Origin: Rickettsiales bacterium
GTDB taxonomy: Bacteria; Pseudomonadota; Alphaproteobacteria; Rickettsiales; UBA3002
DNA: 64,000 nucleotides
NCBI GenBank assembly: GCA_046154225.1
Contig: JBJXEM010000007.1
Span: 859 to 64,858, forward strand
Reading direction: 5' to 3'
Of the stretch, positions 1-23,129 are shown in pieces. Each line of letters starts with the position of its first letter. Position 1 is the first letter of the stretch. The notes under the pieces were generated by a model, which worked only from the letters and a program-made list of their open reading frames with translations, was not told the DNA's origin and did not search any database. The translations under genes and the position numbers were made by a program.

Positions 1-168
1 AAAACCCTTGCAGAAAAATTCATGCTGCCAAGCTTCCGGCCATTCGCCACCCACCAACGCTTCCACAAACCCTTTCGAGGTTTGCTTAAACACATCGTAG
101 GCCCAGCCCAGATCTTTGTCCGGGTCGGCGGGTCTGAGTTCAAATTCTGTGTCTTTGATCTTCATCAT
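1..168 (-). CDS. hypothetical protein, N-terminal fragment (gene continues beyond left edge)
   Basis: Not in ORF track (too short). The minus-strand frame is open from the ATG at 168 to base 1 (MMKIKDTEFELRPADPDKDLGWAYDVFKQTSKGFVEALVGGEWPEAWQHEFF...). Its ATG overlaps the TGA of the upstream 1314-aa gene (TGATG, 166-170), suggesting a fifth coupled gene. Confidence 0.4.
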   Translation of the reverse strand, partial: MMKIKDTEFELRPADPDKDLGWAYDVFKQTSKGFVEALVGGEWPEAWQHEFFCKGF

Positions 169-3100: not shown

Positions 3101-4109
3101 GATGCAACGTGTCGACCCGGAACCGCTTAAATTTTTTGGTGTGGGTGAGGTGATTTTCATCGCTCATGTAGCGGTGCAGGAACGACCGTAAAATACTGTC
3201 GTCAAAGCGGCTGATATTATGGCCTTCGGTGACGGCTGGCGACTCTACTTTTTTCCAGCGTTTTTTGCTCGGTTCGGGGTCGTAATAAATGTCGCCTTTA
3301 TTCAGTTGGTCGGCGTCGGCCAGCCGATAGAGTGGCTGCGGATACCCCTCGCCCATGGCCTCCTTCATCGCTTCGGCGAAAGCGCTCATTCCACCATGAA
3401 ACGCGTATAATTTCTTCGTGATCACGTCGCGATTGAACGCGTGCGTTTCGCTATTGAAAATCTCGTGCGCATCCGTTGTGAGTACGCGGGCGATTGCCTG
3501 CGCCAGTGCTGACTTATCCTCGATGCGCTCCATCACGTCGCAATAATGATCGACGCGGTCGGGGTAACGGTACGACAGGTATTTACCGCCCTGATGGATG
3601 CGGATTTCCGTCTTCCGTTTGCCGTCGCGGCTGGCGATGCTGTAGACGCGCACTTCTTCCTCTTTGCCGGAGGGGCCGGTGATCATCATCGCTGAATCTT
3701 CCAACTGGTCCCACAACGCCCGGTAAGGATTGCGGAAATACAGCATCATTTTTGCCGCCGCGAGGTGCGGCTTCACTCGGCCTTTTTCGCTGTATAAATC
3801 CTTCGGTGGGCTTTGCGTCACGATGGCGGCTTGTGGGGCCACCACCACATCTTTGGGCACCTGAATGTCCATTTTCAGCGTGTCGATAATCCGCCCGTCG
3901 AGCGTGATGATTTTACCGCAGAACATGGTGGGGGCCGCGAACATGGGGTCGAGCCCGGTGGTTTCAAAGTCGTAGCTCAGCGACAGCAGCTTACCGCTCT
4001 CGATTAAATGCTCGACATTGTCGTAGTCGAACTGCTCGCGCAGCCACCAGTCTTGCGCCGGATTGCCTAGCTCGGTGGTTGGGGTTGGGGCAACTGCTTT
4101 ACGGGCCAT
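168..4109 (-). CDS. giant exonuclease I (SbcB)-like DEDDh 3'-5' exonuclease with internal insertion and ~700-aa C-terminal extension of unknown function
   Basis: 1314-aa ORF. The track start is GTG 4112; ATG 4109 lies 6 nt after GGGAGA. Exonuclease motifs: SYDFETTGLD (Exo I), EGHNISRFDDSILR (Exo II), AHQDPEYDVLA (Exo III, H-x4-D). The following stretch (HPIRGFARYIHPNG, IIKMRKNPPVV, NRRFLLSHPELRDKL) parallels the SH3-like and C-terminal domains of E. coli ExoI as I recall them. Confidence 0.75.
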   Translation of the reverse strand: MARKAVAPTPTTELGNPAQDWWLREQFDYDNVEHLIESGKLLSLSYDFETTGLDPMFAAPTMFCGKIITLDGRIIDTLKMDIQVPKDVVVAPQAAIVTQSPPKDLYSEKGRVKPHLAAAKMMLYFRNPYRALWDQLEDSAMMITGPSGKEEEVRVYSIASRDGKRKTEIRIHQGGKYLSYRYPDRVDHYCDVMERIEDKSALAQAIARVLTTDAHEIFNSETHAFNRDVITKKLYAFHGGMSAFAEAMKEAMGEGYPQPLYRLADADQLNKGDIYYDPEPSKKRWKKVESPAVTEGHNISRFDDSILRSFLHRYMSDENHLTHTKKFKRFRVDTLHLAKLIALVDVGGENSFKLGTKIDGNTGKPYKSYTLSSLMEANTRDANPERGVDEGVRMPDGSKYDRRLAHQDPEYDVLACISLRAFMRKRVPDVVRRFEENADLDKLILFLTGGKGFEPHPIRGFARYIHPNGAHLRLGVCVGVNVDMKERRQALLMRTDLNSKLEDYTYNVNGTEKKLLDMTADELAVMLKMQAGNPDALCEIIKMRKNPPVVEKEIAILRGAGGDLALNETNRRFLLSHPELRDKLMKAHCLVTPPLPDFRTIRNPRPEEHLFTNLANAKRYEFEVDGKKEMVARDVHVLWEKELTTDRSIDAVLRRAVKPQTVEIEVRNDTLEAFIERMGEVEKALHKSLPGKNFKLPKPDASFTPPKWDVKPAGGNPGIPHVMTHEECAELTANAVEYLWKLRAEFMSEFGDFSTDFTVHDRYGHPVAFPRLNAMSERDRSSKFRTGEYSIHKEQLNYSAELMACMFRDAGRVEWVKQYWADQGREDKLREWERWERIFEGRIALAWNRAPHEDIDHSRWMTGEKGLKDCARILDNLLKGDVRPEDLEHWGHWDIFMRNSDVAAPIVNEYIKLCAEMMAAHPLTDEKQRLMGYEPLKQGFPIEYARYEIPAGAKVLTLDVPDKMLERPLGHHEVSHNFIMCNPSPAQRKALAEMEPGTFLFLRGEQTGRTYLAAKPAILTTREISPSAYFHEEYKAAAVRFRDSGMEPPAPEELVAIAAEAFEPVPAKINESLEPIKVRTWDNFMATVSPELGYRDTRLTGLAIKHEGYVPSIGATRLEGMVKGSKKPGLEESGWEVPATITNVQTMTLKEARERVKLGREQIKAAVAVGLDSIDAARAALARDEMTDEDAAKAGLKSLKKLKSLMNKESFTEEYAVHYGYANLASMQKELTAMFVDHARDINLGDNLIHFIDFDPADKMVWHNPAPRPMVRLLGDVVDVSPPAPAHEGPDATLVKGNPKITRGQRATSERGT

Positions 4110-4112
4110 CAC

Positions 4113-7100
4113 TTATCTCCCTGCGTATGCAGCAGAATTATTTTGAAACCGCCCTAAAAGCCGCCCACGATTTTCCTGCCCAGGCAGGTCAGCGCCGCGG
4201 TCTGGCCGCTCGCCAGGGGGCGCCATGCGGTTTTCCGGCGCGGGTTCGGGCGGGCTTGCTTTGCGCTCGGCGTGAGCTCTCGCCACGTATTCGGCATCCA
4301 TGGAAGCAAGCGCACTCTCATACATCCCGCTTTTTTGTGCGGTGGCAAAAAGCCCCTTACCCACAAACCCACCCTCGGCATCCATCCGGCGGACGCGGGT
4401 GGCGATCTGGTAGCCCCCGTGATACTCTCCTTCTTTAATGATACGCTGAATGCGGATAAGCGACGCCATGCTGCGGCCAAGCGAAGTGATTTGCGTTTCT
4501 GCCGCGCTCGCGCCGGCGGCGATACCGATTTTCTCGAAATTCGGGACAATGCGCCCCATGTAGCGATGGCCGCCAGCGGCGCATATCTCGCCCACTCGCT
4601 CGCCTGCTTCTAGCGACGACGTATGCTGCGACGCCGTCATATCGGCGCGAACCATGTTCACCCATGCTTCGCAGTCTTTCGCGTAACCATGGCCGCCCGC
4701 GTGAATGGGCATGCCGCTCACCACCAATGTTTTGCCGTCCTCACTGCGTACGCAGTTTTTGCCCAGACTTTTGAGCCTTTTTTCGATTTTCTCGCGGCGG
4801 TCTAAATCGTGCGGGGCGAAATGGATGATAAACCCGTCGTGAATCGCCTGCACCACGCTGTAGCCTTGCGCCACCAGATCATCGCACATTTTGGCTTGTT
4901 TTTTGTCATTTCCCGGAATGGCACTTTGTGAAATGACGACGAAATTATTCTCGGGGTTCACCGGGCGCGCCGTGTGGCTTTTATCCGCGTTGCCGTTTAA
5001 CACCGGGTGGCGGCCTTGCGACATGGCCGTCAATGCCGCATCCACTTCGACATTGGTGCCCTGCGTGCCGGTGAGCAGCACAAGCCTGCGGCTGTCGGCG
5101 CCATGCATGCCGTCGCCATCGTCCATGCTCATGATGCGGCGTGCCGTTTTGCTGCCACGGCCCACGCGGATGGCGCCGAGCGTCAATTCATCCTCGGTTA
5201 ACGAGCCGAGCGTAGTTTTCCGGCCGAATTTATTTTTAAGAACCTGTTCATATTCCCATCGCTTTTCGTAACGGGTGGCGGGGCTTTTAATGTCTTTGAG
5301 TTTCTCAAAAAACTCCAGACGTGCTTCATGCCGCTCGATTTTATTTTCAATCGTACGGCGCGTTCTTTCGTTCGTGGTTGTTTCGAGTTTCGCTTTGTGA
5401 CCCTCGATTTTTCTGCGCAGGCGGTACTCGAAATACCAATCGAGATAGGGCAGAATATTATTACGAATTTCCGGCTCAATACGTAGATCGTTCACGCCAC
5501 CCACGTTCATGGTCGTCGCGGTTTTCTGCAGGTTGGTGCCGAATTCCGTCACGTCGCGATGCACCCGCGTGCCCACCCGCAGCGCGGTTTCGTAGCGGTT
5601 GTCGTTGGTCGAAATCATGGCAAGGAACATGCCCTTGTCCTTGAACCAGTCGGATATCTCGCAGAGATTATCCTCGACTTCAGGTTCCGTCGGCCCCCAG
5701 CCGTTTTTCATGATGGAGGTGATGTCCATGTCGAAATAAGTCGGCCCGCGCTTGGCGATTTCAGGGTCGAAGCGGTCGGCCACTTCCTGCGCCAGCTGAT
5801 TCTTTTTTGCCAAACGCTGCATTTCATCGAGGAAACGCTGGTTGCTCTCGGTGAAAAACTTCTTATCCAGATGGTCGGCGTCAACTTCGCGCCCCACGTA
5901 ATCGTCGGCATTGTGGCGACCAAACCGCGCATCGCCGTGGTTGAGGTAAGAGCCCAGCCATTTGCCCTCATAATGCCCATGCACGAAAAACGGTGTGGTG
6001 CGTGCTGAGTGCGGCGTGGCGTTGCGCGCATAATTCACCGAAAGCCGGGTTTTACCTTGCTTGTCTTTGATGTGCAGCCAGCCCTGCCCATTCAGCATCG
6101 CGAAGGTGGGCAGGTCGCGCTCGCTAATGCCCGGATAGCTTGACAACTTATCACGAATCGAGCGGTAGACCTCCGGTGTGCAATGCACCGTTTTACCACG
6201 CAGCAGGCCGCGCTCAATATAGATGAACAAGCCATCCGTGTGGTCGAGATGGCGGTGGGTGATGAGGATATCGTCGCAGTATTTCAGGTGCTCCACCACA
6301 TCCGGCGCGGCCGAGAGCGTTGCTTCATCTTTGGGGCTAAGATGCAGCCCCAAATCGATAATGACGCCTACCCGGTCGAGCTTGCCGTTTTTATCGAGCC
6401 CTTCGTGGCACACCACTTTCGAGTTGCCGCCAATCGCCTCACCCAACCCGTCAACGATGGGTTCCATGTTGTTGCCGCCAACGGAAATCATGCTCAGCCT
6501 CCCGCCCTGAGCGAGCGGTGGAGGCGGCGTATAGGTATACACCAGATCATCAAGGTCGTGCTCGACGAGATGGTCGATGGCGGCCGGATATTTACCAAAC
6601 CGCGCGTCGTGCATCATGCGGTTGGTGGCGCCGAGCCCGCGCATCTGCCGCAAATGGCTATCATCCTTGAAATTTTCGTCGCACAGATTCATTTCTGCGA
6701 GCGTGGCAGTCCGGTTTTCCGGTACCACGGATGCATCGTCGCTACTTTTCCACGCAACATCCGTCAGGCCTGGCAGGGCACTGGCCGGTTTGGTTTCAAA
6801 ATCCCAACTGGGCGAATATTGACTGCGTACGCTCGGATTTCGACCTTTAGTAGCGTGGATGAGCGTCAGGTAATCTTCGCCCGTTTCAGGATGGGTTCCG
6901 TGCAGGGGGGTCACTGGCTGCAACTTATTGTCGTGATCGATCGTATTGGCATCGAGCCCCATCAGCGCGCCCGCCACCCATTCCGGCACCGTGATTGTCT
7001 GATCGCGCGGCATCTCCTGGCCCGGCATAGCATCGAACACTAAGCCATCCTGCGTGGCCGACTGGCCGGTGACCGTCAGGCTGTGGCCGGAAGCATCTTT

Positions 7101-7622
7101 CAGCGCATACTTATCGAGGATTTTTGCCACGTTTGGCAGCTTTCCAGCGCGCATTTCAAGGTTCACGTCCTTCACCGCCGCCATCAAGCGCGACAGATTT
7201 GCCATCACCGCGTCCCTGTGATCGGGATCGTCGTCATCGCCCAGCAAGTGGCCGTCATTGCCTGATTGATACATCGGATTGCCAAGCACATACGCCGCAC
7301 GCGGGACAACGCTTGGAACTTTTGTCTGAGTGCCGTCAGGTTTGTCGACAGTGATTTCCTCCTGCGCCAACTCGATATCGAATAGTTCGAGAGATTGCTG
7401 GCGGCCTGCCGCATTCATGTACCAGTAGAGGGTTTTGAGGTGTGTCACGCCCCCGCTTTTATCGAGCACGGCTTTGGTTTGAATGGCGACGGCGCCACCG
7501 GTGCGCGGATCCACGCCGCCTTCGGCCAACCCTACAGCATGTCCCTCGCCGTTCGCCAGTGCCGGGTGGCTGAGGCCGACCGCGTTCAGAATCGCACGTT
7601 TCGGCCAGCCCCAGTAACTCAT
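4113..7622 (-). CDS. giant metallo-beta-lactamase/beta-CASP (RNase J-like) nuclease with ~400-aa unknown N-terminal region
   Basis: ORF 4113-7655. The likely start is ATG 7622, with AAGGAG 7 nt upstream and an ATGA overlap with the upstream stop. Motifs: ILITHRHLDHTDG (HxHxDH), VLLTGTQGT, SQSAIPGND, and IHAGGHGYAKDCEAWVNMVRADMTASQHT (resembles the RNase J segment hvSGHa...PvHGE). Confidence 0.75.
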   Translation of the reverse strand: MSYWGWPKRAILNAVGLSHPALANGEGHAVGLAEGGVDPRTGGAVAIQTKAVLDKSGGVTHLKTLYWYMNAAGRQQSLELFDIELAQEEITVDKPDGTQTKVPSVVPRAAYVLGNPMYQSGNDGHLLGDDDDPDHRDAVMANLSRLMAAVKDVNLEMRAGKLPNVAKILDKYALKDASGHSLTVTGQSATQDGLVFDAMPGQEMPRDQTITVPEWVAGALMGLDANTIDHDNKLQPVTPLHGTHPETGEDYLTLIHATKGRNPSVRSQYSPSWDFETKPASALPGLTDVAWKSSDDASVVPENRTATLAEMNLCDENFKDDSHLRQMRGLGATNRMMHDARFGKYPAAIDHLVEHDLDDLVYTYTPPPPLAQGGRLSMISVGGNNMEPIVDGLGEAIGGNSKVVCHEGLDKNGKLDRVGVIIDLGLHLSPKDEATLSAAPDVVEHLKYCDDILITHRHLDHTDGLFIYIERGLLRGKTVHCTPEVYRSIRDKLSSYPGISERDLPTFAMLNGQGWLHIKDKQGKTRLSVNYARNATPHSARTTPFFVHGHYEGKWLGSYLNHGDARFGRHNADDYVGREVDADHLDKKFFTESNQRFLDEMQRLAKKNQLAQEVADRFDPEIAKRGPTYFDMDITSIMKNGWGPTEPEVEDNLCEISDWFKDKGMFLAMISTNDNRYETALRVGTRVHRDVTEFGTNLQKTATTMNVGGVNDLRIEPEIRNNILPYLDWYFEYRLRRKIEGHKAKLETTTNERTRRTIENKIERHEARLEFFEKLKDIKSPATRYEKRWEYEQVLKNKFGRKTTLGSLTEDELTLGAIRVGRGSKTARRIMSMDDGDGMHGADSRRLVLLTGTQGTNVEVDAALTAMSQGRHPVLNGNADKSHTARPVNPENNFVVISQSAIPGNDKKQAKMCDDLVAQGYSVVQAIHDGFIIHFAPHDLDRREKIEKRLKSLGKNCVRSEDGKTLVVSGMPIHAGGHGYAKDCEAWVNMVRADMTASQHTSSLEAGERVGEICAAGGHRYMGRIVPNFEKIGIAAGASAAETQITSLGRSMASLIRIQRIIKEGEYHGGYQIATRVRRMDAEGGFVGKGLFATAQKSGMYESALASMDAEYVARAHAERKASPPEPAPENRMAPPGERPDRGADLPGQENRGRLLGRFQNNSAAYAGR

Positions 7623-8080
7623 GCCGAGGCTCCTTTTACCAGCGCCTGCGTCCATAAAACCTGTCCGCGTTTGGACAGTAGCGGCATGATGAGCGCATCC
7701 TTTGGTCGCGCGCTAGCCTTCAACGCGGTGATAATGGTGCCAAGCGTTGCCAGCAGCCGCGGTAGATCGGCCAAATGCGCGCCTGCGTCGCAGGTGAACG
7801 ATGTCACCGCGCACAGCCCGTCGGGCCCGGCGGGCGAGAGCGTCAGTGATAGCACGTCGAAAAACCGGCGCTTGAAACCGGGGCCCTGGCGGTGCATTTC
7901 GAAGCTGAGGATGACGCCCCCGCGCGCCGTTTCCTCGAGCCCGATCGACAGCACCCGGTAATCTCCTGTCGTGGGATTATAATCGGCCAGTTCCGCGCGC
8001 TCGCCCACCACGAGGCAAAGGCTGTGCGAAAATGCCGCCGGGTCGATGCGTAGCGAACCCATGCCAGGTGTTGCGCTCAT
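7619..8080 (-). CDS. hypothetical protein (153 aa), operon-internal
   Basis: ORF with ATGA overlaps at both ends (8077-8080 and 7619-7622). No motif recognised. Confidence 0.6.
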   Translation of the reverse strand: MSATPGMGSLRIDPAAFSHSLCLVVGERAELADYNPTTGDYRVLSIGLEETARGGVILSFEMHRQGPGFKRRFFDVLSLTLSPAGPDGLCAVTSFTCDAGAHLADLPRLLATLGTIITALKASARPKDALIMPLLSKRGQVLWTQALVKGASA

Positions 8081-10410
8081 CGCCCGGCTCCATCGCGTCT
8101 GATTTCAACGTCATCGCGCGCGGGGGACTGTTTAATGAGCTTCTGCTCACCTCGCAATGTGGTCTGCGCCGAAAGATAGGCATCCATCAGCTTATTTTGT
8201 ACCGCTTTGACGGAAGCGCGGTCGCCATCGTCACTCGTGTCGGGCTTTGCATACAAACGATCGTGCGGAATCCATAAGGCGGCCTTGGTGGTGAGCAGCC
8301 TTCTTGCCTCCTCCACCACGGTTTCTTCGCCGGATTCGCGTGGGGCCGAGGTTGTTTGGCCGCGGTCGTAACTGACGAGTTCGGGCGGCGCAAAGTTTGT
8401 GTTGATCGGGTCGCGGGTTTGCTCGCCAGCGTTGCGTGCCGACGGGTCGACCCCCATGTCATGCAGCGCAACCAACCGCGCCAGCGCCACTGCCTGCTCG
8501 GTCGCCACCACATTCGAAAGTGCCGCACGGCGCACTTCCTGCGTTAAAAGCTGGATGTCGGTGAGCAGTGTTTCAGGTGTTTTCAGGTCGGCGGCGCTGA
8601 ACACATCCAACGTCGATTGCGCGCCTGTCGGGCGTTCGATCATGCCGGCCTGAATCAGCCTTGCCCGCACACGCAACTGCACCAGGTCGTTCGAACGTTG
8701 CCACCCCTCCTGAAACACCGCCTTGTCCACATTGCGGTCGAGGTATTTCATCTGCAGCGCGAGGCGCAGTTGCGGGCTAGTTTTGCCTGCCCCAGGTTCG
8801 GCGATAAATCCTTCGGGCCGCATGCGTTCAATGGTGCTGGCGATACGCAGAAAGCTTGGGGTGCTGACCACAATTTTATGTGGGTTTTTTGCTTTTATCT
8901 CTGCCTGTAACGTTTCCGCTTCGCGCAAGTTGGCCGAAATGATTTCTGCCGTTTCGCGGCCCAGTGCCCCGGCGAGCTCATCCATGTTGTCGACGCCCAT
9001 CGCGTCGGCCCGTTCGGCACCGTATTTGCCGCGTTTGAGATCGGCGAACACCATCGTCGCCATCGGGTGGCCGGTGGGGTAAAGCCCGGTTTCGCTAGCG
9101 CCGATGGCAAACGGCAGTGCCAGCCGCTCCCACTTTTGAAGCTTGCCATACACATCATCTTCGAACATTTTCGACTGTGCGCGCTTTTCGAAGAACCGCT
9201 CGTAACTGTCGAACACGCGCTGGGGCCGCGCCTCGATATCGGCGTGTTTTGCACGCAGCGAATCCGAAGGCAACACCGAGAGAATGCTGTAGGCGTTGGC
9301 CGAAATCCTGTCGGCCACTTGTTTACATGCATCGAGCAGTTTAGCCGATAATTTACGAGGCTTTGCCTGAGCCGCGATGCGATATCCTTCCGGCAAATCA
9401 TCCAATCGCATCAACGACGCGCATTGGTTTTTCAGAATCGGCAGCAGCTCGGCCTTCAGCGCATCCATCGCGGCGAGCTCCTCGGGCGAGCGGTTCTGTA
9501 ACGTCGGGTGCAACTTGCGCCCTTCGGCCGGAATTTTTCCGGCACGAATCTCATCATCGAGCGTAAAAACCTGTGCCAACGCCGTAGCAGCTTCGCGCGG
9601 CTCGAACCCTTTGCCGAGCTGGTATTTCAGCATTTCAGCCAATTTTTCGGTGCGCCATAGCAACGACACGGGTTTGCCTTCTAGGTCGCGCACGTCCATG
9701 TCGGCATCCGGGCGCGATTCCAGCTGACCTGCCTGAATCAACACCCCGCGCATCATTTCCCAAATCGAGTTGCGCGAGAAATTCCAGTCGCCGTCGAGCA
9801 CCATCATCTTGCAGCGATCGATGACGGGGTACCAAAAGGCCATAAAATCTTCTTCTTCATAGCGCTGGCCTTTGGCGAATCCGCGGTCGCTCAGGGCACG
9901 CACTGCCCCCTCGCGCACTACGGGTGCCACCACCATTTTGTCGGCATACATGCGGCTGACGATGGCCGCGCGACGGAGGTTATCGTCTTTGTTCTGCTCG
10001 ATCGCATGCTTCACCAGCGTGCCGGCCAAACGCTCATCGGATTTATAGGTGGATTCGTCCCACTCACGATTGCCCGTGGCGCGCGAGCGATTTTTTCTAT
10101 CCAGCAGCTCGTGCATGCGCAGGCCGGAAGAAATGCCGCACGGTACATAAATCATATCGGCGTCTTGTGCGATTTCATGAAACGCGACCGCCTCAACCGT
10201 GACGCAGGCACGGGTAATTTTGGATTTAGGGTTGATCAGGCGGTTGAAATAGCTGCGCGAGCCGTCGTTACTGACGCCAAAACCGTCGAACCGGTCGGGC
10301 TTGATGCTGCCCTTGAAATACCCGCCAATCCACTCGAATAATTGCTTTTTGGGTGCGGCTTGCGGCGCATTCGTATCGTCTTGCGGTGCATCCAGTTCCG
10401 TGTTGGCCAT
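8077..10410 (-). CDS. large hypothetical protein; N-terminal region with DUF4406 / nucleoside 2-deoxyribosyltransferase-like signature
   Basis: ORF 8077-10488. I prefer the start at ATG 10410 (MANTELD..., GAGGGTG upstream). MIYVPCGISSG ... EEDFMAFWYPVIDRCKMMVLDGDWNFSRNSIWEM fits the IYIAGxxxG ... DW-x2-S-x5-E pattern of DUF4406/NDT-like proteins. This pattern is recalled from memory and needs a profile search. Confidence 0.6.
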   Translation of the reverse strand: MANTELDAPQDDTNAPQAAPKKQLFEWIGGYFKGSIKPDRFDGFGVSNDGSRSYFNRLINPKSKITRACVTVEAVAFHEIAQDADMIYVPCGISSGLRMHELLDRKNRSRATGNREWDESTYKSDERLAGTLVKHAIEQNKDDNLRRAAIVSRMYADKMVVAPVVREGAVRALSDRGFAKGQRYEEEDFMAFWYPVIDRCKMMVLDGDWNFSRNSIWEMMRGVLIQAGQLESRPDADMDVRDLEGKPVSLLWRTEKLAEMLKYQLGKGFEPREAATALAQVFTLDDEIRAGKIPAEGRKLHPTLQNRSPEELAAMDALKAELLPILKNQCASLMRLDDLPEGYRIAAQAKPRKLSAKLLDACKQVADRISANAYSILSVLPSDSLRAKHADIEARPQRVFDSYERFFEKRAQSKMFEDDVYGKLQKWERLALPFAIGASETGLYPTGHPMATMVFADLKRGKYGAERADAMGVDNMDELAGALGRETAEIISANLREAETLQAEIKAKNPHKIVVSTPSFLRIASTIERMRPEGFIAEPGAGKTSPQLRLALQMKYLDRNVDKAVFQEGWQRSNDLVQLRVRARLIQAGMIERPTGAQSTLDVFSAADLKTPETLLTDIQLLTQEVRRAALSNVVATEQAVALARLVALHDMGVDPSARNAGEQTRDPINTNFAPPELVSYDRGQTTSAPRESGEETVVEEARRLLTTKAALWIPHDRLYAKPDTSDDGDRASVKAVQNKLMDAYLSAQTTLRGEQKLIKQSPARDDVEIRRDGAGR

Positions 10411-10578
10411 TTCACCCTCGCAGCACTTCGTTGACACCGAAGGAGTGGCAAAGATTTGTGACAGTCGCGTGACGGTTGCCATGCTCAAACCTCATGGCAG
10501 CCATACCCGTTTTGCAACTATTGACTTTTCCCTGCATGGCTGCGACGCAAGGCTCGAATTTTACAAAAGGAGAAGCGA

Positions 10579-11595
10579 ATGCGTTATCCACAAGCACAAA
10601 AAATAGGCACGATGGGCGACGAAATTGATCTGCCCGCGTTCGATGCAATGATTGACCGTGCACGCGAAAAATTTCGCGCTTTGGCGCAGCGCAATCCGGC
10701 ACTGTTTGGTGGCAGCAACAACCCGCGCCTTGCACTCACCATTAACGAGGACGCTTCGCGCGGCACCATCGCCGTGCCTCAGGGCATTGACGTCAGCTCA
10801 ACGCAAGGGCTCATGCAAGCTGTCGACTTAACGGAGCTGAAACAGACCGCAATAGCCGAGGACATAAAAACCATCGCCGCCCATGCGCATACCAAAAAAG
10901 CCGCCACCGTGTGCGTGCGCCCTGAATTTGTGGCACTGGTGAAAAGCGTCACCGACGACAACCCTCCGCCCATCGCCGTGGTGGGCTTCCCTTTCGTGCC
11001 CGACCCCACCAGTGCTACACAGGCGGTGCTCGAACAAACCCGCTCTGCTATTGAAGCAGGCGCACGCGAAATCGACATGGTGCTCGCCATGAACTTCAAA
11101 GACGGCACGCCCGATTATGCCGCGCATTACGATTACATTCGCCAGATCGTGGAGGAAGCCAGCAAAAGCGGCGTGCAAGTCAAAGTGATTCTGGAAACCG
11201 CCTACCTCAGCGACGAGCAGAAAGTAGAAGCCAGCATGATCGCGAAAATGGCCGGTGCCACGTTCGTCAAAACCTCGACCGGCTTCGCCCGCGACGAGCT
11301 GATGCATCCGGACGTACCACTCACGCAAAAAGGCGCCACCGTGCACGATGTGGCACTCATGCGCCGCACCGTGGGCGATACCACCTGCGACGATGCCGGA
11401 AAGCCAACGCCCATGGGCGTAAAAGCTTCGGGCGGCGTGCGTACCCGCGAACAAGCCATCGCCCTGTATGAGGCAGGCGCGAGCCGAATCGGGGCCAGCG
11501 GTGGCATCGACCTGCGCACCCGGCCCGAAGCACGGGCAGACAGTCGCAATGCCCAGCAATCTGACGGCCCGCAGAGCGGCCTGAGTGCGTATTGA
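10579..11595 (+). CDS. deoC: deoxyribose-phosphate aldolase with ~95-aa N-terminal extension
   Basis: AAGGAG lies 6 nt upstream of the ATG. Motifs: VCVRPEFV, VVGFPFV, REIDMVLAMN, VKVILETAYL (catalytic Lys), FVKTSTGFA (Schiff-base Lys), GVKASGGVRT. Confidence 0.85.
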   Translation: MRYPQAQKIGTMGDEIDLPAFDAMIDRAREKFRALAQRNPALFGGSNNPRLALTINEDASRGTIAVPQGIDVSSTQGLMQAVDLTELKQTAIAEDIKTIAAHAHTKKAATVCVRPEFVALVKSVTDDNPPPIAVVGFPFVPDPTSATQAVLEQTRSAIEAGAREIDMVLAMNFKDGTPDYAAHYDYIRQIVEEASKSGVQVKVILETAYLSDEQKVEASMIAKMAGATFVKTSTGFARDELMHPDVPLTQKGATVHDVALMRRTVGDTTCDDAGKPTPMGVKASGGVRTREQAIALYEAGASRIGASGGIDLRTRPEARADSRNAQQSDGPQSGLSAY

Positions 11596-11736: not shown

Positions 11737-14700
11737 GTGGCCAAAGTAAAAACAGATAAAATTGAGACTAAAATCGCCACATTAAAGTCATTCTTTAATG
11801 CGGGAGGGTTGCAAATCGTTGCCGAGCCCAAACGCTGGTCCTATCCCAGCCCTTATGCCCCCGATCCCAATCCCAAAGACAATTACTACGCCATTTACGG
11901 TCCGCCCCTCACGCTCGATGCGTTGCAAAACAGCGGCCTTCTTTCCGAATCGGAGCTGAGGCCGCGCGTCGATAGCAAAACCGAAAGCAAGGCCTATCTG
12001 GATAGTGATCTCGCGCTGGCATTTTTGAAAAAATACCCGGAACTTAAAACCGAAACACCAAACCGCCTATTCGCCCTGAGGAATGACGCGCAGGAGCCGA
12101 CCCTCGCCTGTTTCGACACAGGCAGGCCCATCGAAGGCGACACGCACGCCGATGGCACCAAACCCGACAAGCTATCGTACCTGCTTCTCAGTGCCAGCGA
12201 TGCACGGCGTTTCGAACCAGCACTTAAGCGTCTAACGGTCGATGGTCCACGACAGTATATTACCGCCATCCATCACAAGCGCGAAGTGGGCGAATTTATG
12301 ATTCTGCCAATCCGTCACTCGATGGTGGAAAGCATCCGGCGGGCCAATCCCGGATTGATTGATCTGCAACCTGACGAGTTCGACATAGCGCAGGCGCAAG
12401 GCGCCGATATGGCAACAGCCATGCTGCATATCATAGCGAACCTGAAAGGTGACACACGGTTTGAGAAAGAACCGAAAACAAAAACCATTCACCCCAATGC
12501 ACGAGCCGCGCGCGAGCCTCAGCCAGAATTTGAGCCGCTCACCCTCGCCGATTTTCTCGGCAAACTAAAGCCGCACATTCAAGGCTTTCGGCGTATCGAG
12601 CAATTTAACGGCAGCTTTGATACAACCATGAGCGTCAATGGCAGCGCAAAATTGGCCGAACTGATAAAACGCCAAAGCACGCAAGCTAACGATCTTTCAT
12701 TCACGCCAATCCTGCAACATTCCAAGACCGTGGCTTATAAAATCAATCAGGCCACCTACGATGCCCTAAACCCATTGATCAATGGCACCACGATTACCGA
12801 GCATCTCGGCCAACAGAAATTCAATCCAAACTGGACGCAGCCTACCAACATAAAATACCTGAAGCCAAAACGCGATATCCCGCCTGCGCCAACACTAAAA
12901 AGCATTAAAACGCCAGCAGAAGAATACGATCTGGTCTCAGAATCCGTGTATTCGCTGCGCCTTGCATGTAACAGCGACGGCTCCCTTGAGCAGCATTGGT
13001 TGATCGCCGAGCTGGACAGCCCGCGCCGCGGTTTGGTGCTCGCGGAAAAAATGAGCATCGCGCCGGCGAAAGTTTCGGTGCTGACAGCCGAAAATGAAAA
13101 ACCCACCTTAATCCGCATCCCCATCAGCGCCGCTATTGCCGAAAGCCTGCGTGATGACGATGCCAAGCGGGAAACAGATAAGTCACGCGCCAAGGAAATG
13201 CGCATCGATTCGCAAGAAGCCCCCTACGATTCTCTGGAAGCACTAGACGCGGAGCAGCGCAGCCGCGCTGGCGTGACGGAGTCGCTACCCAAAAGCGCAA
13301 AAACACCTGAACCCACCGCTGAACCTGAAGCTGCCACCCACTCCGAAGAAACCATTCGCGCCGACGCCGAGAAATTGCTTTTCCTGAACCAGCCTGCCTT
13401 CGCGGCGCAGCGCGCAATTCACGTCGCGTCCTATGTCTGGACGGTGATTCATGAGAACTACTCCGACATCCCGGGTAAGCATGCGGATTTACAAACGCAG
13501 CTACGCAACGGGCGCGCGTTTCTGGGCATAAAAATACCTAAAACCGACGCGCCTGAATTCGAAAGTGCGCTGAAACATGTTGGTTTTCACGGACCCGTCG
13601 ATCGGCGCCTGACGTTAGTAGGCTCGGCAGGTCAGGACCAGGTTTATAAGCTGTCGCTTGGCAAGCTCGATGCGCTCGCCTTTGAAAAATACCTCACGCC
13701 TGAACATGCGCTGGAAAATGGCTTGGGAAGCAAGCTGGGCTTTTCTTCACAAACCACGTTTCAAAATACCCTCAAATCGCATTTCGGGGTTACTGAAAAA
13801 ACAAAAGAAGAACCGACTGACACCTACGCCGAAGCCTGGTCGCAGCTCGCCAAACTCGCACAAAAAGGCGATCTGAAATACGCGCAGGTGCGCTATGATG
13901 AAGAAACGATTGCCAAGGCGCTTCACGATTTGCAGGCCGACCTCGATCACCTGAAAGAGGTGGCGGCTCGCGCCGAAACACAAACTACACCCGACAACGA
14001 AAAAACGGAAAACCCATTGGCCGCCCTCAGCCCCGCCATTATGCGTCAGGGGGCCAAACTTTACACACTAAAACGCCATCACGAAGGTCGCCTGAATGCG
14101 CTTCGGATTCAAATTGAAACCATGGAAAAAGAAATCAGCACGTTTCGTGATTGGGTCGAGGCGCAACCGCGTACAATCAACGGCGATATTCTGGTCACGA
14201 ATCTGGTACTCCCCGATCCGGGAAGCAATATCATCAACCATCTGAACACGCTGAGAGCGCAGCTTTATAAGCCACCCGGAGCCAAGGAAGAAAAGAAAGA
14301 GAAAGGGGATAAAAAAGAAAAAAACCCCGGCGTTCAGCTTTTCCCCGATCCATTGGAGCATGTGCAAAAAGCCATGGCCGATAAAATAATCATGGCGGGG
14401 AATCGTGAGGTGTTGCAACCCCGCGAGGTGATACTCGTACCCGTTATCCCGCAATTTTTTGATGTGTTACGTATCCACGCGCCCGAAATTGAAGTCGCCG
14501 CACTCGCACCCAAACCGCTTAGCCGTGCCCGACTCCTGCAGTCGTTACGCAGCATGTTTTATGTCGAACCACCTGCGAAAGTAGAGATAGAAAAAGACCG
14601 TTCGTATGATGCAGTGGCCTCGGTGCGTGAAACCCTGCCACGGCGAGATGAATTACTTAATTGCCGCGATATCCTGCGCTACGCCACTCTGGTCGAGGGG

Positions 14701-15627
14701 CACGCGCATGAAAATCTGGCCGCCAAGACCGTAACCCGCAGGCGCGACGATGGCCGCGTGTTCGCGCGCAAGGAAGTGCTGGGCGAGCGCATCGGCGAAC
14801 AGCATGCCGCCATGTTCCACATCCGCGACGCGCGCGACTGGAAACGCGCAGAAATTTTATTAAAAAGACTCACGGCAGCCGATTGGCTCAAAAATCGTGA
14901 GCGCTATGGCGGGCTTATTGAAGCGCCTTTGCCCGACGATCTGCAAGCTGCGATCAATCAGCGCGATCACGCCACGCGGCAGATTGAATGCATTGAAAAC
15001 GATGACCTTCTTTTCCATCTTCAGCAGGTGGCAATAGGTAAAGGCACGGAATTCTCTTTGCCGCATGCACGCGTAGCAGCAAGGGCGCTGTGCGAAGCGG
15101 TCGAGTACGATGAAGATGCGGAAAAAATCCGAGATTTACTACAAACGGATGGCGACATTGATGACACGAAACTCGCCTCGGCCCACGGAAAGCTGGAAGC
15201 AATTTTCAATGAACTCCGCACGCGCCGTAACGAAGCGCAGGAGCGCGTGATTCAGCTCGGCATACACTATAAAATCCCCGAAACCGATGCACGTATGGCA
15301 CCGGAAATTATCGCCGATGAGGCGCCGCTCGCTTACCTGCCCGGTGAGGAACATGGCGTTGCGCTCTCGCAACTGGCCGAATTAATGCCCAAACTACCGG
15401 GCGATGAATCTGTCAGTTTCGTGGTTTACCTCGGGCTCGACGATAAGCGTGAGCCCGACCGGCAGATGATGGCTGCCATGCAGTCTTTTCGCCCGGCGCC
15501 GGATTCTGCAGGTGTACGCTCAGCCAAAGCCATCGAAGAAAAATATGGCCGCACCAGCGGTAACACCCTCGATGAGTGGTTTGCCGAGCGTGGCAAACAT
15601 TTCGGAGTCAGCGGCGAACTCGCATAG
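11737..15627 (+). CDS. hypothetical protein (1296 aa), no recognisable domain
   Basis: Long uninterrupted ORF with a GTG start (gtg gcc aaa gta). It has a K/E-rich low-complexity patch (PGAKEEKKEKGDKKEKNPG). No signal peptide or TM segment is seen. Confidence 0.65.
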   Translation: MAKVKTDKIETKIATLKSFFNAGGLQIVAEPKRWSYPSPYAPDPNPKDNYYAIYGPPLTLDALQNSGLLSESELRPRVDSKTESKAYLDSDLALAFLKKYPELKTETPNRLFALRNDAQEPTLACFDTGRPIEGDTHADGTKPDKLSYLLLSASDARRFEPALKRLTVDGPRQYITAIHHKREVGEFMILPIRHSMVESIRRANPGLIDLQPDEFDIAQAQGADMATAMLHIIANLKGDTRFEKEPKTKTIHPNARAAREPQPEFEPLTLADFLGKLKPHIQGFRRIEQFNGSFDTTMSVNGSAKLAELIKRQSTQANDLSFTPILQHSKTVAYKINQATYDALNPLINGTTITEHLGQQKFNPNWTQPTNIKYLKPKRDIPPAPTLKSIKTPAEEYDLVSESVYSLRLACNSDGSLEQHWLIAELDSPRRGLVLAEKMSIAPAKVSVLTAENEKPTLIRIPISAAIAESLRDDDAKRETDKSRAKEMRIDSQEAPYDSLEALDAEQRSRAGVTESLPKSAKTPEPTAEPEAATHSEETIRADAEKLLFLNQPAFAAQRAIHVASYVWTVIHENYSDIPGKHADLQTQLRNGRAFLGIKIPKTDAPEFESALKHVGFHGPVDRRLTLVGSAGQDQVYKLSLGKLDALAFEKYLTPEHALENGLGSKLGFSSQTTFQNTLKSHFGVTEKTKEEPTDTYAEAWSQLAKLAQKGDLKYAQVRYDEETIAKALHDLQADLDHLKEVAARAETQTTPDNEKTENPLAALSPAIMRQGAKLYTLKRHHEGRLNALRIQIETMEKEISTFRDWVEAQPRTINGDILVTNLVLPDPGSNIINHLNTLRAQLYKPPGAKEEKKEKGDKKEKNPGVQLFPDPLEHVQKAMADKIIMAGNREVLQPREVILVPVIPQFFDVLRIHAPEIEVAALAPKPLSRARLLQSLRSMFYVEPPAKVEIEKDRSYDAVASVRETLPRRDELLNCRDILRYATLVEGHAHENLAAKTVTRRRDDGRVFARKEVLGERIGEQHAAMFHIRDARDWKRAEILLKRLTAADWLKNRERYGGLIEAPLPDDLQAAINQRDHATRQIECIENDDLLFHLQQVAIGKGTEFSLPHARVAARALCEAVEYDEDAEKIRDLLQTDGDIDDTKLASAHGKLEAIFNELRTRRNEAQERVIQLGIHYKIPETDARMAPEIIADEAPLAYLPGEEHGVALSQLAELMPKLPGDESVSFVVYLGLDDKREPDRQMMAAMQSFRPAPDSAGVRSAKAIEEKYGRTSGNTLDEWFAERGKHFGVSGELA

Positions 15628-22187: not shown

Positions 22188-22214
22188 GACGCTCCTCGCG
22201 GATTCATGTATGTA
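22186..22214 (+). promoter_or_regulatory. sigma-70-like promoter of pilin-like gene 1
   Basis: TTGACG (22186-22191), a 17-nt spacer, TATGTA (22209-22214), with a T-run upstream. The predicted TSS coincides with ATG 22221, so the mRNA would be leaderless or near-leaderless. Confidence 0.5.
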
Positions 22215-22220
22215 AATTAT

Positions 22221-23123: not shown

Positions 23124-23129
23124 TGTTAG

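What the first reader, a model, noticed from the sequence alone, without database searches (positions are those of the whole stretch)
8077..10410. DUF4406/deoxyribosyltransferase-like signature in the first operon gene
MIYVPCGISSG and EEDFMAFWYPVIDRCKMMVLDGDWNFSRNSIWEM reproduce the spacing of the DUF4406 pattern: IYIAG..G, then ..DY....IDxCD...L.DW-x2-S-x5-E. I am recalling this pattern from memory. The two halves are split by a ~90-aa insertion and followed by ~500 aa of unknown sequence. Members of this fold include dNMP N-glycosidases (Rcl/DNPH1) whose product, deoxyribose-5-phosphate, is the DeoC substrate. deoC is the divergent neighbour.
Basis: inference. Interest (0 to 1): 0.6.

Follow-up and report, generated by a model that had tools for sequence, protein, structure and literature searches.

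The report
Tandem DUF4406-like glycosidase in nuclease–DeoC operon
The 777-residue "hypothetical protein" carries one apparently active and one degenerate copy of a very divergent DUF4406/deoxyribosyltransferase-like domain. It always sits beside two giant predicted nucleases and often beside deoxyribose-phosphate aldolase, so it is probably the nucleotide-splitting step of an undescribed DNA-breakdown module.

Summary
The gene at 8077..10410 (-) encodes MIYVPCGISSG (aa 86-96) and EEDFMAFW...DGDWNFSRNSIWEM (aa 186-219), and deoC is the divergent neighbour.

Direct tests of the DUF4406 idea fail:
- Pfam, NCBIfam and PDB profile searches give no hit.
- Foldseek searches with good AlphaFold models never return NDT or DNPH1 structures.

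Indirect sequence evidence supports it:
- The family profile reaches short single-domain relatives (hhalign probability 100%).
- Those relatives score above the PF14359 cut-off.
- hhalign against 120 real DUF4406 proteins puts S212 and E218 on the S and E of GWxxSxGAxxE. Probability is 19% intact and 88% once a 43-aa insertion is removed; controls give 11% or less.
- E218, S212, G96, N140 and W193 are nearly invariant in 78 relatives.

The "unknown" C-terminal part holds a second copy without the Glu.

The gene always travels with a metallo-beta-lactamase/beta-CASP nuclease and a protein with ExoI-like DEDDh motifs. DeoC is adjacent in 6 of 12 close loci, in two orientations. A distant operon reads A-C-D-DeoC-aldehyde dehydrogenase.

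Best reading: nucleases make dNMPs, this protein makes deoxyribose-5-phosphate, and DeoC consumes it. The function is inferred, not shown. I rate it a new variant of a known kind.

The parts
8077..10410 (-). Gene A: 777-aa protein with two DUF4406-like domains. It is the first gene of the four-gene operon A-B-C-D.
   Evidence: ORF list. Identical NCBI protein and 33 homologues with no Pfam annotation. 98 representative relatives in 1.84 billion proteins. AlphaFold model with pLDDT 83 and pTM 0.83.
9511..10233 (-). Domain 1 (aa 60-300): divergent DUF4406/NDT-like alpha/beta domain, predicted to be the catalytic copy.
   Evidence: hhalign against the short single-domain relatives (alignment A5): probability 100%, E 1e-46. 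hhalign against 120 PF14359 proteins: 18.6% intact, 87.6% with aa 97-139 removed; controls 0.1-10.6%. Strand/helix order in the AlphaFold model is beta-alpha-beta-alpha-beta-alpha-beta-alpha.
10123..10155 (-). First strand plus loop, MIYVPCGISSG (aa 86-96). It corresponds to the IYIAGPMTG motif of DUF4406.
   Evidence: Aligned by hhalign. G96 75/78, S/T94 75/78, Y88 44/78.
9994..10122 (-). Family-specific insertion (aa 97-139) between the first loop and the conserved Asn140.
   Evidence: Removing it raises hhalign probability against DUF4406 from 18.6% to 87.6%. The same operation on the short relatives raises the PF14359 score from 26.7 to 34.5 bits.
9727..9858 (-). Core motif aa 185-228: EEEDFMAFW...LDGDWNFSRNSIWEMMRGVLIQAG. 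It carries S212, R213 and the putative nucleophile E218 (codon 9757-9759).
   Evidence: E218 77/78, S212 76/78, W193 75/78, G228 76/78, R213 57/78. S212 and E218 align with the S and E of GWekSrGAxLE in DUF4406.
8431..9138 (-). Domain 2 (aa ~425-660): degenerate duplicate of domain 1. It includes LALPFAIGASETG (aa 430-442) and DRNVDKAVFQEGWQRSNDLVQLRVRARLIQAG (aa 558-589). The Glu position is Leu579.
   Evidence: hhalign domain 1 against domain 2: 88% with 22 sequences and 98.7%, E 2e-16, with 78 sequences. Domain 2 against the short relatives: 98.6%. The column equivalent to E218 is L/D/H/M, not conserved.
7619..8080 (-). Gene B: 153-aa protein of unknown function. Its ATG overlaps the stop codon of A (ATGA).
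   Evidence: No hit in Pfam, NCBIfam, PADLOC or PHROGs. Present in most close loci, absent in L004. Junction sequence read.
4113..7655 (-). Gene C: 1180-aa protein with a metallo-beta-lactamase plus beta-CASP (RNase J/CPSF73-like) nuclease core at about aa 431-950. The HxHxDH motif ITHRHLDHTDG lies at nt 6231-6263.
   Evidence: Lactamase_B_2 at 23.2 bits and RNase_J_b_CASP at 22 bits, both sub-threshold. The same pair of hits appears in every orthologue tested, and the L021 orthologue scores 30.3 bits against a 27-bit cut-off. Weak PDB hits to CPSF-73/100.
168..4112 (-). Gene D: 1314-aa protein. Its N-terminal part (aa ~36-450) carries DEDDh exonuclease motifs resembling E. coli exonuclease I: YDFETTG (nt 3954-3974), GHNISRFDD (3198-3224) and AHQDPEYDV (2871-2897).
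   Evidence: The motif residues are invariant in 5 orthologues. Distant orthologues carry them in canonical form: DSETGG/GYNN..DD/HGARYD in L021 and DLETSG/GFNVKGYD/HGAVID in L022. hhalign against E. coli SbcB: probability 26%, E 7e-4. An insertion-deleted construct gives RNase_T at E 0.037 and DNA_pol_B_exo1 at E 0.19. This evidence is weak.
10579..11595 (+). deoC: deoxyribose-phosphate aldolase, 338 aa with an N-terminal extension of about 78 aa. It is transcribed divergently from A, 168 bp away.
   Evidence: TIGR00126 at 166.4 bits and PF01791 at 63.3 bits. The same long DeoC type is adjacent to A in L005, L007, L016, L017 and L018. A 321-aa DeoC lies downstream of D in L021.

Best explanation
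Gene A encodes a tandem-domain member of the N-(deoxy)ribosyltransferase-like superfamily.

Architecture:
- Domain 1 (aa ~60-300) is a very divergent DUF4406-like domain. It keeps the first-strand glycine loop (S/T94-x-G96), Asn140, Ser212-Arg213 and the Glu (E218) that aligns with the nucleophile of DNPH1 and NDT enzymes.
- Domain 2 (aa ~425-660) is a duplicate that has lost that Glu. I infer that it plays the part of the second subunit of the homodimer these enzymes normally form.

Proposed mechanism (inferred, not shown):
1. The two constant partners degrade nucleic acid, most likely DNA, to nucleoside 5'-monophosphates. C is a beta-CASP metallo-beta-lactamase nuclease; D is an ExoI-like DEDDh exonuclease.
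2. Protein A cleaves the N-glycosidic bond of dNMPs through a covalent Glu218-deoxyribosyl intermediate, releasing the base and 2-deoxyribose-5-phosphate.
3. DeoC splits that product into glyceraldehyde-3-phosphate and acetaldehyde. In one lineage an aldehyde dehydrogenase removes the acetaldehyde.

This would be a shortcut from DNA to central metabolism that bypasses the nucleotidase, phosphorylase and phosphopentomutase steps of the classical deo route.

What is shown: conservation, the internal duplication, homology to the DUF4406-positive short relatives, and the gene linkage. What is inferred: the fold, the catalytic role of E218, the substrate, and the activities of C and D.
For: Homology chain:
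- Family profile to P0108 at E 1.3e-7 and P0122 at E 4.4e-5, in 1.84 billion proteins.
- Those two proteins score 23.7 and 23.4 bits on PF14359 (cut-off 22).
- Their family consensus scores 26.7 bits, and 34.5 bits (E 2.9e-8, profile positions 3-82 of 91) without the insertion.
- hhalign of domain 1 against the short relatives: probability 100%.
- hhalign of domain 1 against 120 PF14359 proteins: 18.6% intact and 87.6% with the insertion removed, in the register S212/E218 = S/E of GWekSrGAxLE. Other regions of the protein give 0.4-1%, the reversed target 10.6%, and ten column-shuffled targets 0.1-1.2%.

Active-site-like conservation: E218 77/78, S212 76/78, G96 75/78, N140 73/78, W193 75/78, E167 70/78.

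Phosphate-site analogy: Ser212 lies six residues before Glu218. That spacing matches the phosphate-binding Ser87 and Glu93 of rat DNPH1 (PMC3834327). Glu104 of human DNPH1 forms the covalent dRP intermediate (PMC10603095).

Duplication.

Context:
- The A/C/D trio is present in every locus long enough to show it. That covers the close relatives, distant relatives at 25-37% identity (L011, L021, L022) and a permuted C-D-A order in L024.
- deoC is adjacent in 6 of 12 close loci, either divergent or co-directional.
- The L021 operon is A-C-D-DeoC-Aldedh, with Aldedh at 508.9 bits.
- Stop/start overlaps show that A-B-C-D form one operon.
Against: - No direct Pfam or NCBIfam hit for this protein, its consensus or the insertion-deleted construct.
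- No PDB sequence-profile hit.
- Foldseek with the full-length model and the domain-1 model gives nothing below E 0.03. NDT and DNPH1 are not among the 50 matches listed; the best matches are generic three-layer alpha/beta folds.
- The 88% hhalign value depends on my choice of what to delete.
- The position that aligns with the conserved Asp of the DUF4406 MRxD motif is Trp193. From sequence spacing alone, I take that Asp to correspond to the general-acid Asp80 of human DNPH1.
- Tyr88 is only 44/78 conserved.
- deoC is absent from the neighbourhood in half of the close loci and in L011, L022 and L024.
- The nuclease assignments for C and especially D rest on sub-threshold scores and motifs.
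- Nothing explains why the three proteins are 800-1300 aa long, or what B does.
Confidence: 0.5

Rival explanations
1. A is NDT-like, but it does not work on free dNMPs as a catabolic enzyme. In this reading A, C and D form a nucleic-acid-targeting machine, for example an anti-phage or other conflict system or a repair complex. The DUF4406-like domain would excise bases from DNA or RNA, destroy a nucleotide cofactor or pool (dNMP or NAD-type), or sense a nucleotide and switch on the nucleases.
For: The trio of giant proteins with two nuclease-like partners is the constant feature, whereas DeoC is optional. Relatives of this superfamily (TIR, SLOG) act in defence systems, which I state from my own knowledge; the papers listed were not read. 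L001 has an OLD-like TOPRIM fragment and an IS1595 transposase nearby. The large sizes and extra unknown regions are more typical of regulated machines than of simple catabolic enzymes.
Against: None of the five proteins has a meaningful PADLOC hit; the only match is DrmC on DeoC at E 0.0024. The neighbourhoods differ between loci and are mostly housekeeping genes, not defence islands. Every contig examined showed a single copy. DeoC linkage in three different arrangements, plus an aldehyde dehydrogenase, points to consumption of deoxyribose-5-phosphate.
Confidence: 0.22
2. A is an NDT-superfamily enzyme with a different substrate or chemistry. It could be a ribonucleotide N-glycosidase (like MilB, LOG or PpnN) acting on NMPs released from RNA by the RNase J-like partner. 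Or it could be a base-exchanging deoxyribosyltransferase rather than a hydrolase.
For: C resembles RNase J/CPSF73, which are mainly RNA enzymes. Nothing in the sequence discriminates 2'-H from 2'-OH substrates. The remembered DUF4406 consensus also matches PF05014, the transferase family (E 4.9e-6).
Against: DeoC and aldehyde dehydrogenase act on the deoxy-sugar branch; ribose-5-phosphate would not need them. Ser at Glu-6 matches the phosphate-binding Ser87 of DNPH1. From memory, NDT transferases have Asp at that position, where it contacts the 5'-OH of nucleosides. D carries ExoI-like motifs, and ExoI is a DNA exonuclease.
Confidence: 0.15
3. The resemblance to DUF4406 is convergent or due to chance. 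Domain 1 would then be a generic Rossmann-like domain unrelated to N-glycosidases, and the DeoC adjacency would be inherited synteny without functional meaning.
For: No direct profile hit. No structural hit to NDT or DNPH1. The intact hhalign probability is only 18.6%. Foldseek's best, non-significant matches are PP-loop ATPases and GT-B domains.
Against: Two independent routes converge on the same register: HMMER to the short relatives and on to the Pfam gathering score, and hhalign with controls. The aligned Ser and Glu are the most conserved residues of the whole family. DeoC is found divergent, upstream co-directional and downstream in different lineages, which is not simple inherited synteny.
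Confidence: 0.08

Closest known systems
DUF4406 (Pfam PF14359; N-(deoxy)ribosyltransferase-like superfamily)
   Same: Same order of elements: first strand plus Gly loop (IYxxGxxxG), a conserved Asn, a strand ending in Pro, a helix, a strand, then W-x2-S-x5-E at the start of the next helix. The Ser and Glu are nearly invariant. Short single-domain relatives of our domain pass the PF14359 gathering score.
   Different: Our protein itself scores nothing on PF14359. The domain is about 240 aa rather than the 95-157 aa of the 120 PF14359 proteins retrieved. It has a 43-aa insertion after the first loop and two extra C-terminal helices. The Asp of the DUF4406 'MRxD' motif is Trp193. The domain is duplicated within a 777-aa protein. 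DUF4406 itself has no characterised function: a full-text search found three papers that mention the name, and the two I checked only list it as an annotation.
DNPH1/Rcl, 2'-deoxynucleoside 5'-phosphate N-hydrolase
   Same: The proposed chemistry: a Glu nucleophile forming a covalent deoxyribose-5-phosphate intermediate. A Ser six residues upstream binds the 5'-phosphate. The product is the DeoC substrate (PMC3834327, PMC10603095). DNPH1 works as a dimer with each active site touched by the other chain; here a second, Glu-less copy in the same chain could do this.
   Different: No detectable direct sequence or Foldseek similarity. The general-acid Asp is not conserved at the aligned position. 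Tyr of the triad is only partly conserved (Y88 44/78). DNPH1 is about 170 aa. A role in bulk DNA catabolism rather than pool sanitation is an inference.
Nucleoside 2'-deoxyribosyltransferase (NDT, PF05014)
   Same: Same superfamily as DUF4406; my remembered DUF4406 consensus, used as bait, also hits PF05014 at E 4.9e-6. Same position of the catalytic Glu.
   Different: NDTs use nucleosides and, from memory, have Asp rather than Ser six residues before the Glu. They are small oligomeric proteins. No hit to PF05014 here.
Classical deo pathway (nucleotidase, then DeoA/DeoD phosphorylase, DeoB mutase and DeoC)
   Same: Ends in the same DeoC reaction. An aldehyde dehydrogenase follows DeoC in L021.
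   Different: No deoA, deoB or deoD lies next to this deoC. The proposed route goes from dNMP to deoxyribose-5-phosphate in one step and is physically linked to nucleases.
RNase J/CPSF73 beta-CASP nucleases and E. coli exonuclease I (SbcB)
   Same: C has the HxHxDH motif and a beta-CASP match. D has the three DEDDh motifs, colinear with SbcB. Both enzyme classes release nucleoside 5'-monophosphates, which is established knowledge.
   Different: C and D are two to three times larger than their namesakes and carry long unassigned regions. In this window the matches for both are below family thresholds.

Membership tests
DUF4406 (PF14359) | Scores at or above the Pfam gathering threshold (22 bits) | tested here: not met
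   No hit at E<=10 for the protein, 21 close homologues, the A1 and A2 consensus sequences, or the insertion-deleted construct. Only the short relatives P0108 and P0122 pass, at 23.7 and 23.4 bits.
DUF4406 (PF14359) | Profile-profile homology to bona fide members | tested here: inconclusive
   hhalign against 120 PF14359 proteins: 18.6% intact and 87.6% after deleting aa 97-139; controls are 10.6% or less. Homology to the PF14359-positive short relatives is 100%.
DUF4406 (PF14359) | W-x2-S-x-G-A-x2-E motif with conserved Ser and Glu | tested here: met
   The sequence is DWNFSRNSIWE. S212 is 76/78 and E218 is 77/78. The register is confirmed by hhalign. Gly and Ala are replaced by Asn and Ser in this protein.
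DUF4406 (PF14359) | N-terminal strand plus Gly loop (IYIAGPMTG) followed closely by a conserved Asn | tested here: met
   The loop is MIYVPCGISSG, with G96 75/78. N140 is 73/78, but it lies 43 residues further along than in DUF4406.
DUF4406 (PF14359) | Small single-domain protein (the 120 PF14359 proteins retrieved are 95-157 aa, most about 100) | tested here: not met
   The protein is 777 aa with two copies of a domain of about 240 aa.
NDT/DNPH1 N-glycosidases | Flavodoxin-like three-layer alpha/beta fold | tested here: inconclusive
   The AlphaFold models (pLDDT 83 and 78) show alternating strands and helices. Foldseek against PDB and BFVD gives no significant match, and no NDT or DNPH1 structure among the 50 matches listed. 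I could not obtain coordinates for a direct superposition.
NDT/DNPH1 N-glycosidases | Catalytic Glu nucleophile at the start of the third helix | tested here: met
   E218 is 77/78 conserved and aligns with the DUF4406 Glu. Equivalence to DNPH1 E104 is inferred from motif spacing.
NDT/DNPH1 N-glycosidases | General-acid Asp (human DNPH1 D80) and Tyr of the triad (Y24) | tested here: not met
   W193 (75/78) aligns with the conserved Asp of the DUF4406 MRxD motif; I equate that Asp with D80 by spacing only. Y88 is Y in 44/78, otherwise M or F. An upstream acidic cluster (E185-D188) could substitute; this is untested.
NDT/DNPH1 N-glycosidases | 5'-phosphate-binding Ser six residues before the Glu (rat DNPH1 Ser87) | tested here: met
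   S212 is 76/78 and lies at position E218 minus 6 (PMC3834327).
NDT/DNPH1 N-glycosidases | N-glycosidic bond cleavage of dNMPs or deoxynucleosides | not testable with these tools
   This needs an enzyme assay.
beta-CASP metallo-beta-lactamase nucleases (gene C) | HxHxDH motif plus a beta-CASP insert | tested here: met
   The motif is THRHLDH at aa 466-472. Lactamase_B_2 and RNase_J_b_CASP match in every orthologue tested (17.6-23.5 bits, sub-threshold), and the L021 orthologue reaches 30.3 bits, above the 27-bit cut-off.
DEDDh (DnaQ/ExoI-like) exonucleases (gene D) | ExoI (DxE), ExoII (NxxxD) and ExoIII (Hx4D) motifs, and a profile match | tested here: inconclusive
   The motifs are present and invariant. 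Here ExoIII has one extra residue (H407...D413). Profile support is weak: RNase_T at E 0.037 and hhalign against SbcB at 26%.
DeoC deoxyribose-phosphate aldolase (neighbour) | TIGR00126 equivalog score | tested here: met
   166.4 bits against a cut-off of 117.3.

The most novel reading that the evidence does not exclude
A, C and D (with or without B) form a previously undescribed module conserved in uncultured Alphaproteobacteria labelled Rickettsiales. It would dismantle DNA all the way to central metabolites. Two giant nucleases produce dNMPs, and a pseudo-dimeric NDT-like enzyme converts dNMP directly to deoxyribose-5-phosphate. That is a DNPH1-type reaction used for bulk catabolism. DeoC and an aldehyde dehydrogenase finish the job. 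This would also give the first physiological role and substrate for the DUF4406 branch of the superfamily.
Probability: 0.35. Interest if true: 0.7.

Novelty: new variant of a known kind. Interest (0 to 1): 0.6.

Why it matters
DUF4406 is a large family with no assigned function; 925 proteins matched the bait at E<=1e-5. Only 3 papers in the held full-text library mention it, and the two I checked only list it as an annotation.

If the reading is right, this locus would provide three things:
- A testable substrate for a divergent branch of DUF4406.
- An example of a homodimeric N-glycosidase turned into a single-chain pseudo-dimer.
- A candidate one-step bacterial route from dNMP to deoxyribose-5-phosphate, coupled to dedicated nucleases. 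I did not find such a route described; one full-text search for DNPH1 together with deoxyribose-phosphate aldolase and bacteria returned nothing.

It also assigns tentative roles to three very large "hypothetical" proteins. They are conserved across uncultured Rickettsiales-like Alphaproteobacteria, where scavenging of host or environmental DNA could matter. All of this rests on inference and needs biochemistry.

Tried and rejected
Searches that found nothing for A:
- Direct hmmscan against Pfam, NCBIfam, PADLOC and PHROGs.
- hmmscan of all close homologues.
- hmmscan of A1 and A2 consensus sequences and of an insertion-deleted construct of our own protein.
- PDB sequence-profile searches with A1, A2 and A5; only chance-level hits.

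Structure searches:
- Foldseek of the full-length model against PDB.
- Foldseek of a separately predicted domain-1 model against PDB and BFVD.

Getting a real DUF4406 alignment:
- The phage Ps15 "DUF4406-domain protein", taken as a canonical example, turned out to be PF24963 (DUF7768) under current Pfam, and I dropped it.
- A DUF4406 consensus written from memory found no PDB entry except a chance-level NDT hit at E 1.8. It scored 127.6 bits on PF14359, so I used it only as bait to fetch real members.
- My first hhalign run was accidentally in global mode and is disregarded.

Other:
- A PDB profile search for D found nothing.
- Promoter and terminator scans around the A/deoC intergenic region and the operon end gave nothing useful.
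- I rejected the idea that the 1296-aa ORF after deoC belongs to the system. It is absent from all other loci.

Full report
**1. What is at the coordinates**

The minus-strand ORF 8077..10488 is open for 803 codons. The 777-aa product starting at ATG 10410 is identical to an NCBI entry, [quoted passage not shown]. It has 32 further homologues of about 770 aa at 42-67% identity, none with any Pfam domain.

The divergent neighbour 10579..11595 is a true deoC (TIGR00126 166 bits against a cut-off of 117).

**2. Direct tests of the DUF4406/NDT idea fail**

- hmmscan against Pfam, NCBIfam, PADLOC and PHROGs gives nothing for the protein at E<=1.
- hmmscan gives nothing relevant for 21 homologues at E<=10.
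- Profile searches of PDB sequences with 22-, 78- and 9-sequence alignments give only chance-level hits.
- AlphaFold2 gives confident models: full length pLDDT 83 and pTM 0.83; aa 60-300 alone pLDDT 78 and pTM 0.75.
- Foldseek with the full-length model against PDB, and with the domain-1 model against PDB and BFVD, finds nothing better than E 0.03. TM-scores are about 0.2.
- The best, non-significant matches are generic three-layer alpha/beta nucleotide-binding folds (TilS, NAD synthetase, OtsA). No NDT or DNPH1 entry is among the 50 matches listed.

The other (fold unrelated to NDT) is undecided. The strand/helix order of the model is what an NDT-like domain would have, but I could not superpose coordinates.

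**3. Indirect sequence evidence supports it**

An exhaustive HMMER search of 1.84 billion representative proteins with the family profile found 98 relatives. Most are 700-900 aa. A few are short proteins of 200-320 aa that match only the first domain.

Among 47 distant relatives scanned individually, the only Pfam family hit more than once was PF14359, DUF4406, hit by 4 members. These four are P0108, P0122, P0109 and P0123. P0108 and P0122 pass the curated cut-off of 22 bits, at 23.7 and 23.4 bits.

These short proteins plainly have the same domain as ours. P0108 reads YISTPITSG ... VIKPN ... IIAPAAFE ... DEYMGLWFDVIEKKVTSIVLLDGWEYSNGAVEEYLQALLMQAG. hhalign of our domain 1 (78 sequences) against them gives probability 100%, E 1e-46. 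Plain tblastn gives E 1e-13.

The consensus of the short relatives scores 26.7 bits on PF14359. With the segment between the first loop and the conserved "PN" removed, it scores 34.5 bits (E 2.9e-8) over profile positions 3-82 of 91.

To compare with real DUF4406 proteins, I wrote the family consensus from memory. I checked that it is a fair proxy (127.6 bits on PF14359). I then used it only as bait to retrieve 120 proteins that carry a precomputed PF14359 annotation.

hhalign results against that alignment:

| Query | Probability | E-value |
|---|---|---|
| Domain 1, intact | 18.6% | 1.3e-3 |
| Domain 1, aa 97-139 deleted | 87.6% | 3.5e-6 |
| Domain 2 | 24.8% | 7.9e-4 |
| Control: aa 300-500 of the protein | 0.4% | – |
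| Control: aa 640-777 of the protein | 1.0% | – |
| Control: reversed DUF4406 alignment (deleted construct as query) | 10.6% | – |
| Control: ten column-shuffled DUF4406 alignments | 0.1-1.2% | – |

- IYVPCGISSG aligns with IYIAGPMTG.
- N140 aligns with the conserved Asn.
- VVAP aligns with VVNP.
- DFMAFW aligns with dYMRxD.
- DGDWNFSRNSIWE aligns with LPGWekSrGAxLE.

The deletion boundaries were my choice, so the 88% figure is somewhat optimistic. Two independent routes still agree on the same columns. I put the probability that domain 1 belongs to the DUF4406/NDT-like superfamily at about 0.85.

**4. Anatomy**

Relative to DUF4406, the insertion is about 43 aa (aa 97-139), not about 90. The domain also has two additional helices (aa ~250-290).

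In 78 relatives down to about 17% identity, the most conserved positions of the whole protein are as follows:

| Position | Conservation |
|---|---|
| E218 | 77/78 |
| S212 | 76/78 |
| G228 | 76/78 |
| G96 | 75/78 |
| W193 | 75/78 |
| S/T94 | 75/78 |
| N140 | 73/78 |
| P163 | 73/78 |
| E167 | 70/78 (plus 6 Gln) |
| R213 | 57/78 |

This looks like an active site.

The "unknown" remainder is not featureless. aa ~425-660 is a second copy of the domain:
- N half against C half of the close-homologue alignment A1: 88%.
- Domain 1 against domain 2 in the 78-sequence alignment: 98.7%, E 2e-16.
- Domain 2 against the short relatives: 98.6%.
- Its N-terminal half (LALPFAIGASETG ...) is also detected, at 78.7%.

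Copy 2 keeps W570, S573 and G589. At the Glu position it has Leu579, and the column across the family is L/D/H/M.

DNPH1 is a homodimer in which each active site is contacted by the other chain (PMC10603095; PMC3834327). A catalytic copy fused to a dead copy therefore suggests a single-chain pseudo-dimer. This is an inference.

**5. Comparison with the characterised enzymes**

In DNPH1 the Glu (E104 in human, E93 in rat) forms the covalent deoxyribose-phosphate intermediate. Ser87, six residues earlier, binds the 5'-phosphate together with backbone amides of the first loop. Here S212 lies six residues before E218, and the first loop is Gly/Ser-rich. That fits a nucleotide substrate rather than a nucleoside.

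Two features do not fit:
- Trp193 aligns with the conserved Asp of the DUF4406 MRxD motif, which by spacing I take to be the general-acid Asp (D80).
- Tyr88 is only 44/78 conserved.

A conserved acidic cluster (E185-D188) and E167 might take over acid/base roles. I did not test this.

**6. Gene context**

A, B (153 aa), C (1180 aa) and D (1314 aa) are contiguous on the minus strand, with overlapping or abutting stop and start codons.

Gene C has the HxHxDH motif (THRHLDH). It also has Lactamase_B_2 and RNase J beta-CASP matches that recur in every orthologue tested. They are sub-threshold everywhere except L021, which scores 30.3 bits against a 27-bit cut-off. There are weak PDB hits to CPSF-73/100.

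Gene D has no family hit. Its N-terminal part carries YDFETTG, GHNISRFDD and AHQDPEYDV. These are invariant in orthologues and take canonical DEDDh form in distant ones: DSETGG/GYNN..DD/HGARYD in L021 and DLETSG/NVKGYD/HGAVID in L022. They are colinear with E. coli exonuclease I. hhalign against SbcB gives 26%, E 7e-4, and BLASTP segments fall in order. An insertion-deleted construct gives RNase_T at E 0.037 and DNA_pol_B_exo1 at E 0.19. I regard C as a beta-CASP nuclease (probability about 0.85) and D as a DEDDh exonuclease (about 0.65).

The A/C/D trio occurs in every locus long enough to show it:
- Nine distinct close loci, counting the duplicate pairs L001/L006 and L002/L003 once each.
- Distant ones with A at 25-37% identity: L011 (A-C-D), L021, L022 and L024, where the order is C-D-A.

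Surrounding genes are unrelated between loci and mostly housekeeping. None of the five proteins scanned (A, B, C, DeoC and the 1296-aa ORF) has a meaningful PADLOC match; D was not scanned.

**7. DeoC linkage**

Among 12 distinct close loci with at least 1.5 kb of upstream sequence, a 338-aa DeoC is adjacent in six. It is divergent in the window and L007. It is immediately upstream on the same strand in L005, L016, L017 and L018.

In the distant L021 the operon reads A - C - D - DeoC (321 aa) - aldehyde dehydrogenase (PF00171, 508.9 bits). Acetaldehyde is the DeoC product that such an enzyme would remove.

Three different arrangements argue for selection on linkage, not mere inherited synteny. 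DeoC is nevertheless absent near the trio in the other half of the close loci and in L011, L022 and L024. It is an accessory, not a core part.

**8. Most likely mechanism and rivals**

The best-supported model (confidence about 0.5) has three steps:
1. C and D degrade DNA to dNMPs.
2. A hydrolyses dNMPs via Glu218 to base plus deoxyribose-5-phosphate.
3. DeoC, with or without an aldehyde dehydrogenase, feeds the sugar into central metabolism.

Rivals:
- The trio is a nucleic-acid-targeting conflict or repair machine, in which the NDT-like domain excises bases, depletes a nucleotide or senses one (0.22).
- Same superfamily, but a ribonucleotide substrate or transferase chemistry (0.15).
- Not NDT-like at all (0.08).

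Still unexplained: the very large sizes, protein B, the helical regions aa 300-420 and 660-777 of A, and the Trp in place of the general acid.

**9. Novelty and verdict**

The protein is not a member of PF14359 by Pfam's own criterion. It is a remote, tandemly duplicated relative embedded in a conserved nuclease operon that I could not find described. A search for DUF4406 returned 3 papers, and the two I checked only list it as an annotation. A search for DNPH1 with DeoC and bacteria returned none.

I classify it as a new variant of a known kind and score interest at 0.6. Its interpretation is partly supported: the homology is supported through intermediates, the function is made more plausible by context, and neither the fold nor the activity has been demonstrated.

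Noticed in passing
window 11737..15627 (+): A 1296-aa ORF lies directly downstream of deoC. It has no meaningful hit in Pfam, NCBIfam, PADLOC or PHROGs. It is absent from every other locus that carries the A-C-D cassette.
   Followed up: partly
window 26234..31198 (+): A 1654-aa ORF has no Pfam hit. It lies in the most GC-rich part of the window (28-30 kb, 64.8% GC against about 56% elsewhere).
   Followed up: no
L021 12021..14679: In a distant relative's operon, DeoC is followed by an aldehyde dehydrogenase (PF00171, 508.9 bits) on the same strand, after the A, C and D homologues.
   Followed up: yes
L024 3268..12151: The gene order is permuted to C-D-A in a lineage where A is 32% identical. 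Pentapeptide-repeat and ankyrin-like genes lie upstream.
   Followed up: partly
window 7619..8080 (-) and L002 12325..13281: Protein B varies from about 150 to about 318 aa between loci through an N-terminal extension, and it is missing in L004. It has no family hit anywhere.
   Followed up: partly
L010 30686..31186 (OL702939 130685..131185): The Stenotrophomonas phage Ps15 gene published as a 'DUF4406-domain protein' scores for PF24963 (DUF7768, 60 bits) and not PF14359 with the current Pfam.
   Followed up: yes
window 10579..10812 (+): The DeoC linked to the cassette carries an N-terminal extension of about 78 aa ahead of the aldolase domain (Pfam match starts at residue 79). The linked DeoC genes in L005 and L007 align to it from residue 12 onward, so they share most of the extension.
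   Followed up: no
window 22206..23939 (+): Two adjacent ORFs of about 270 aa carry weak N-terminal methylation (type IV pilin-like) motifs.
   Followed up: no
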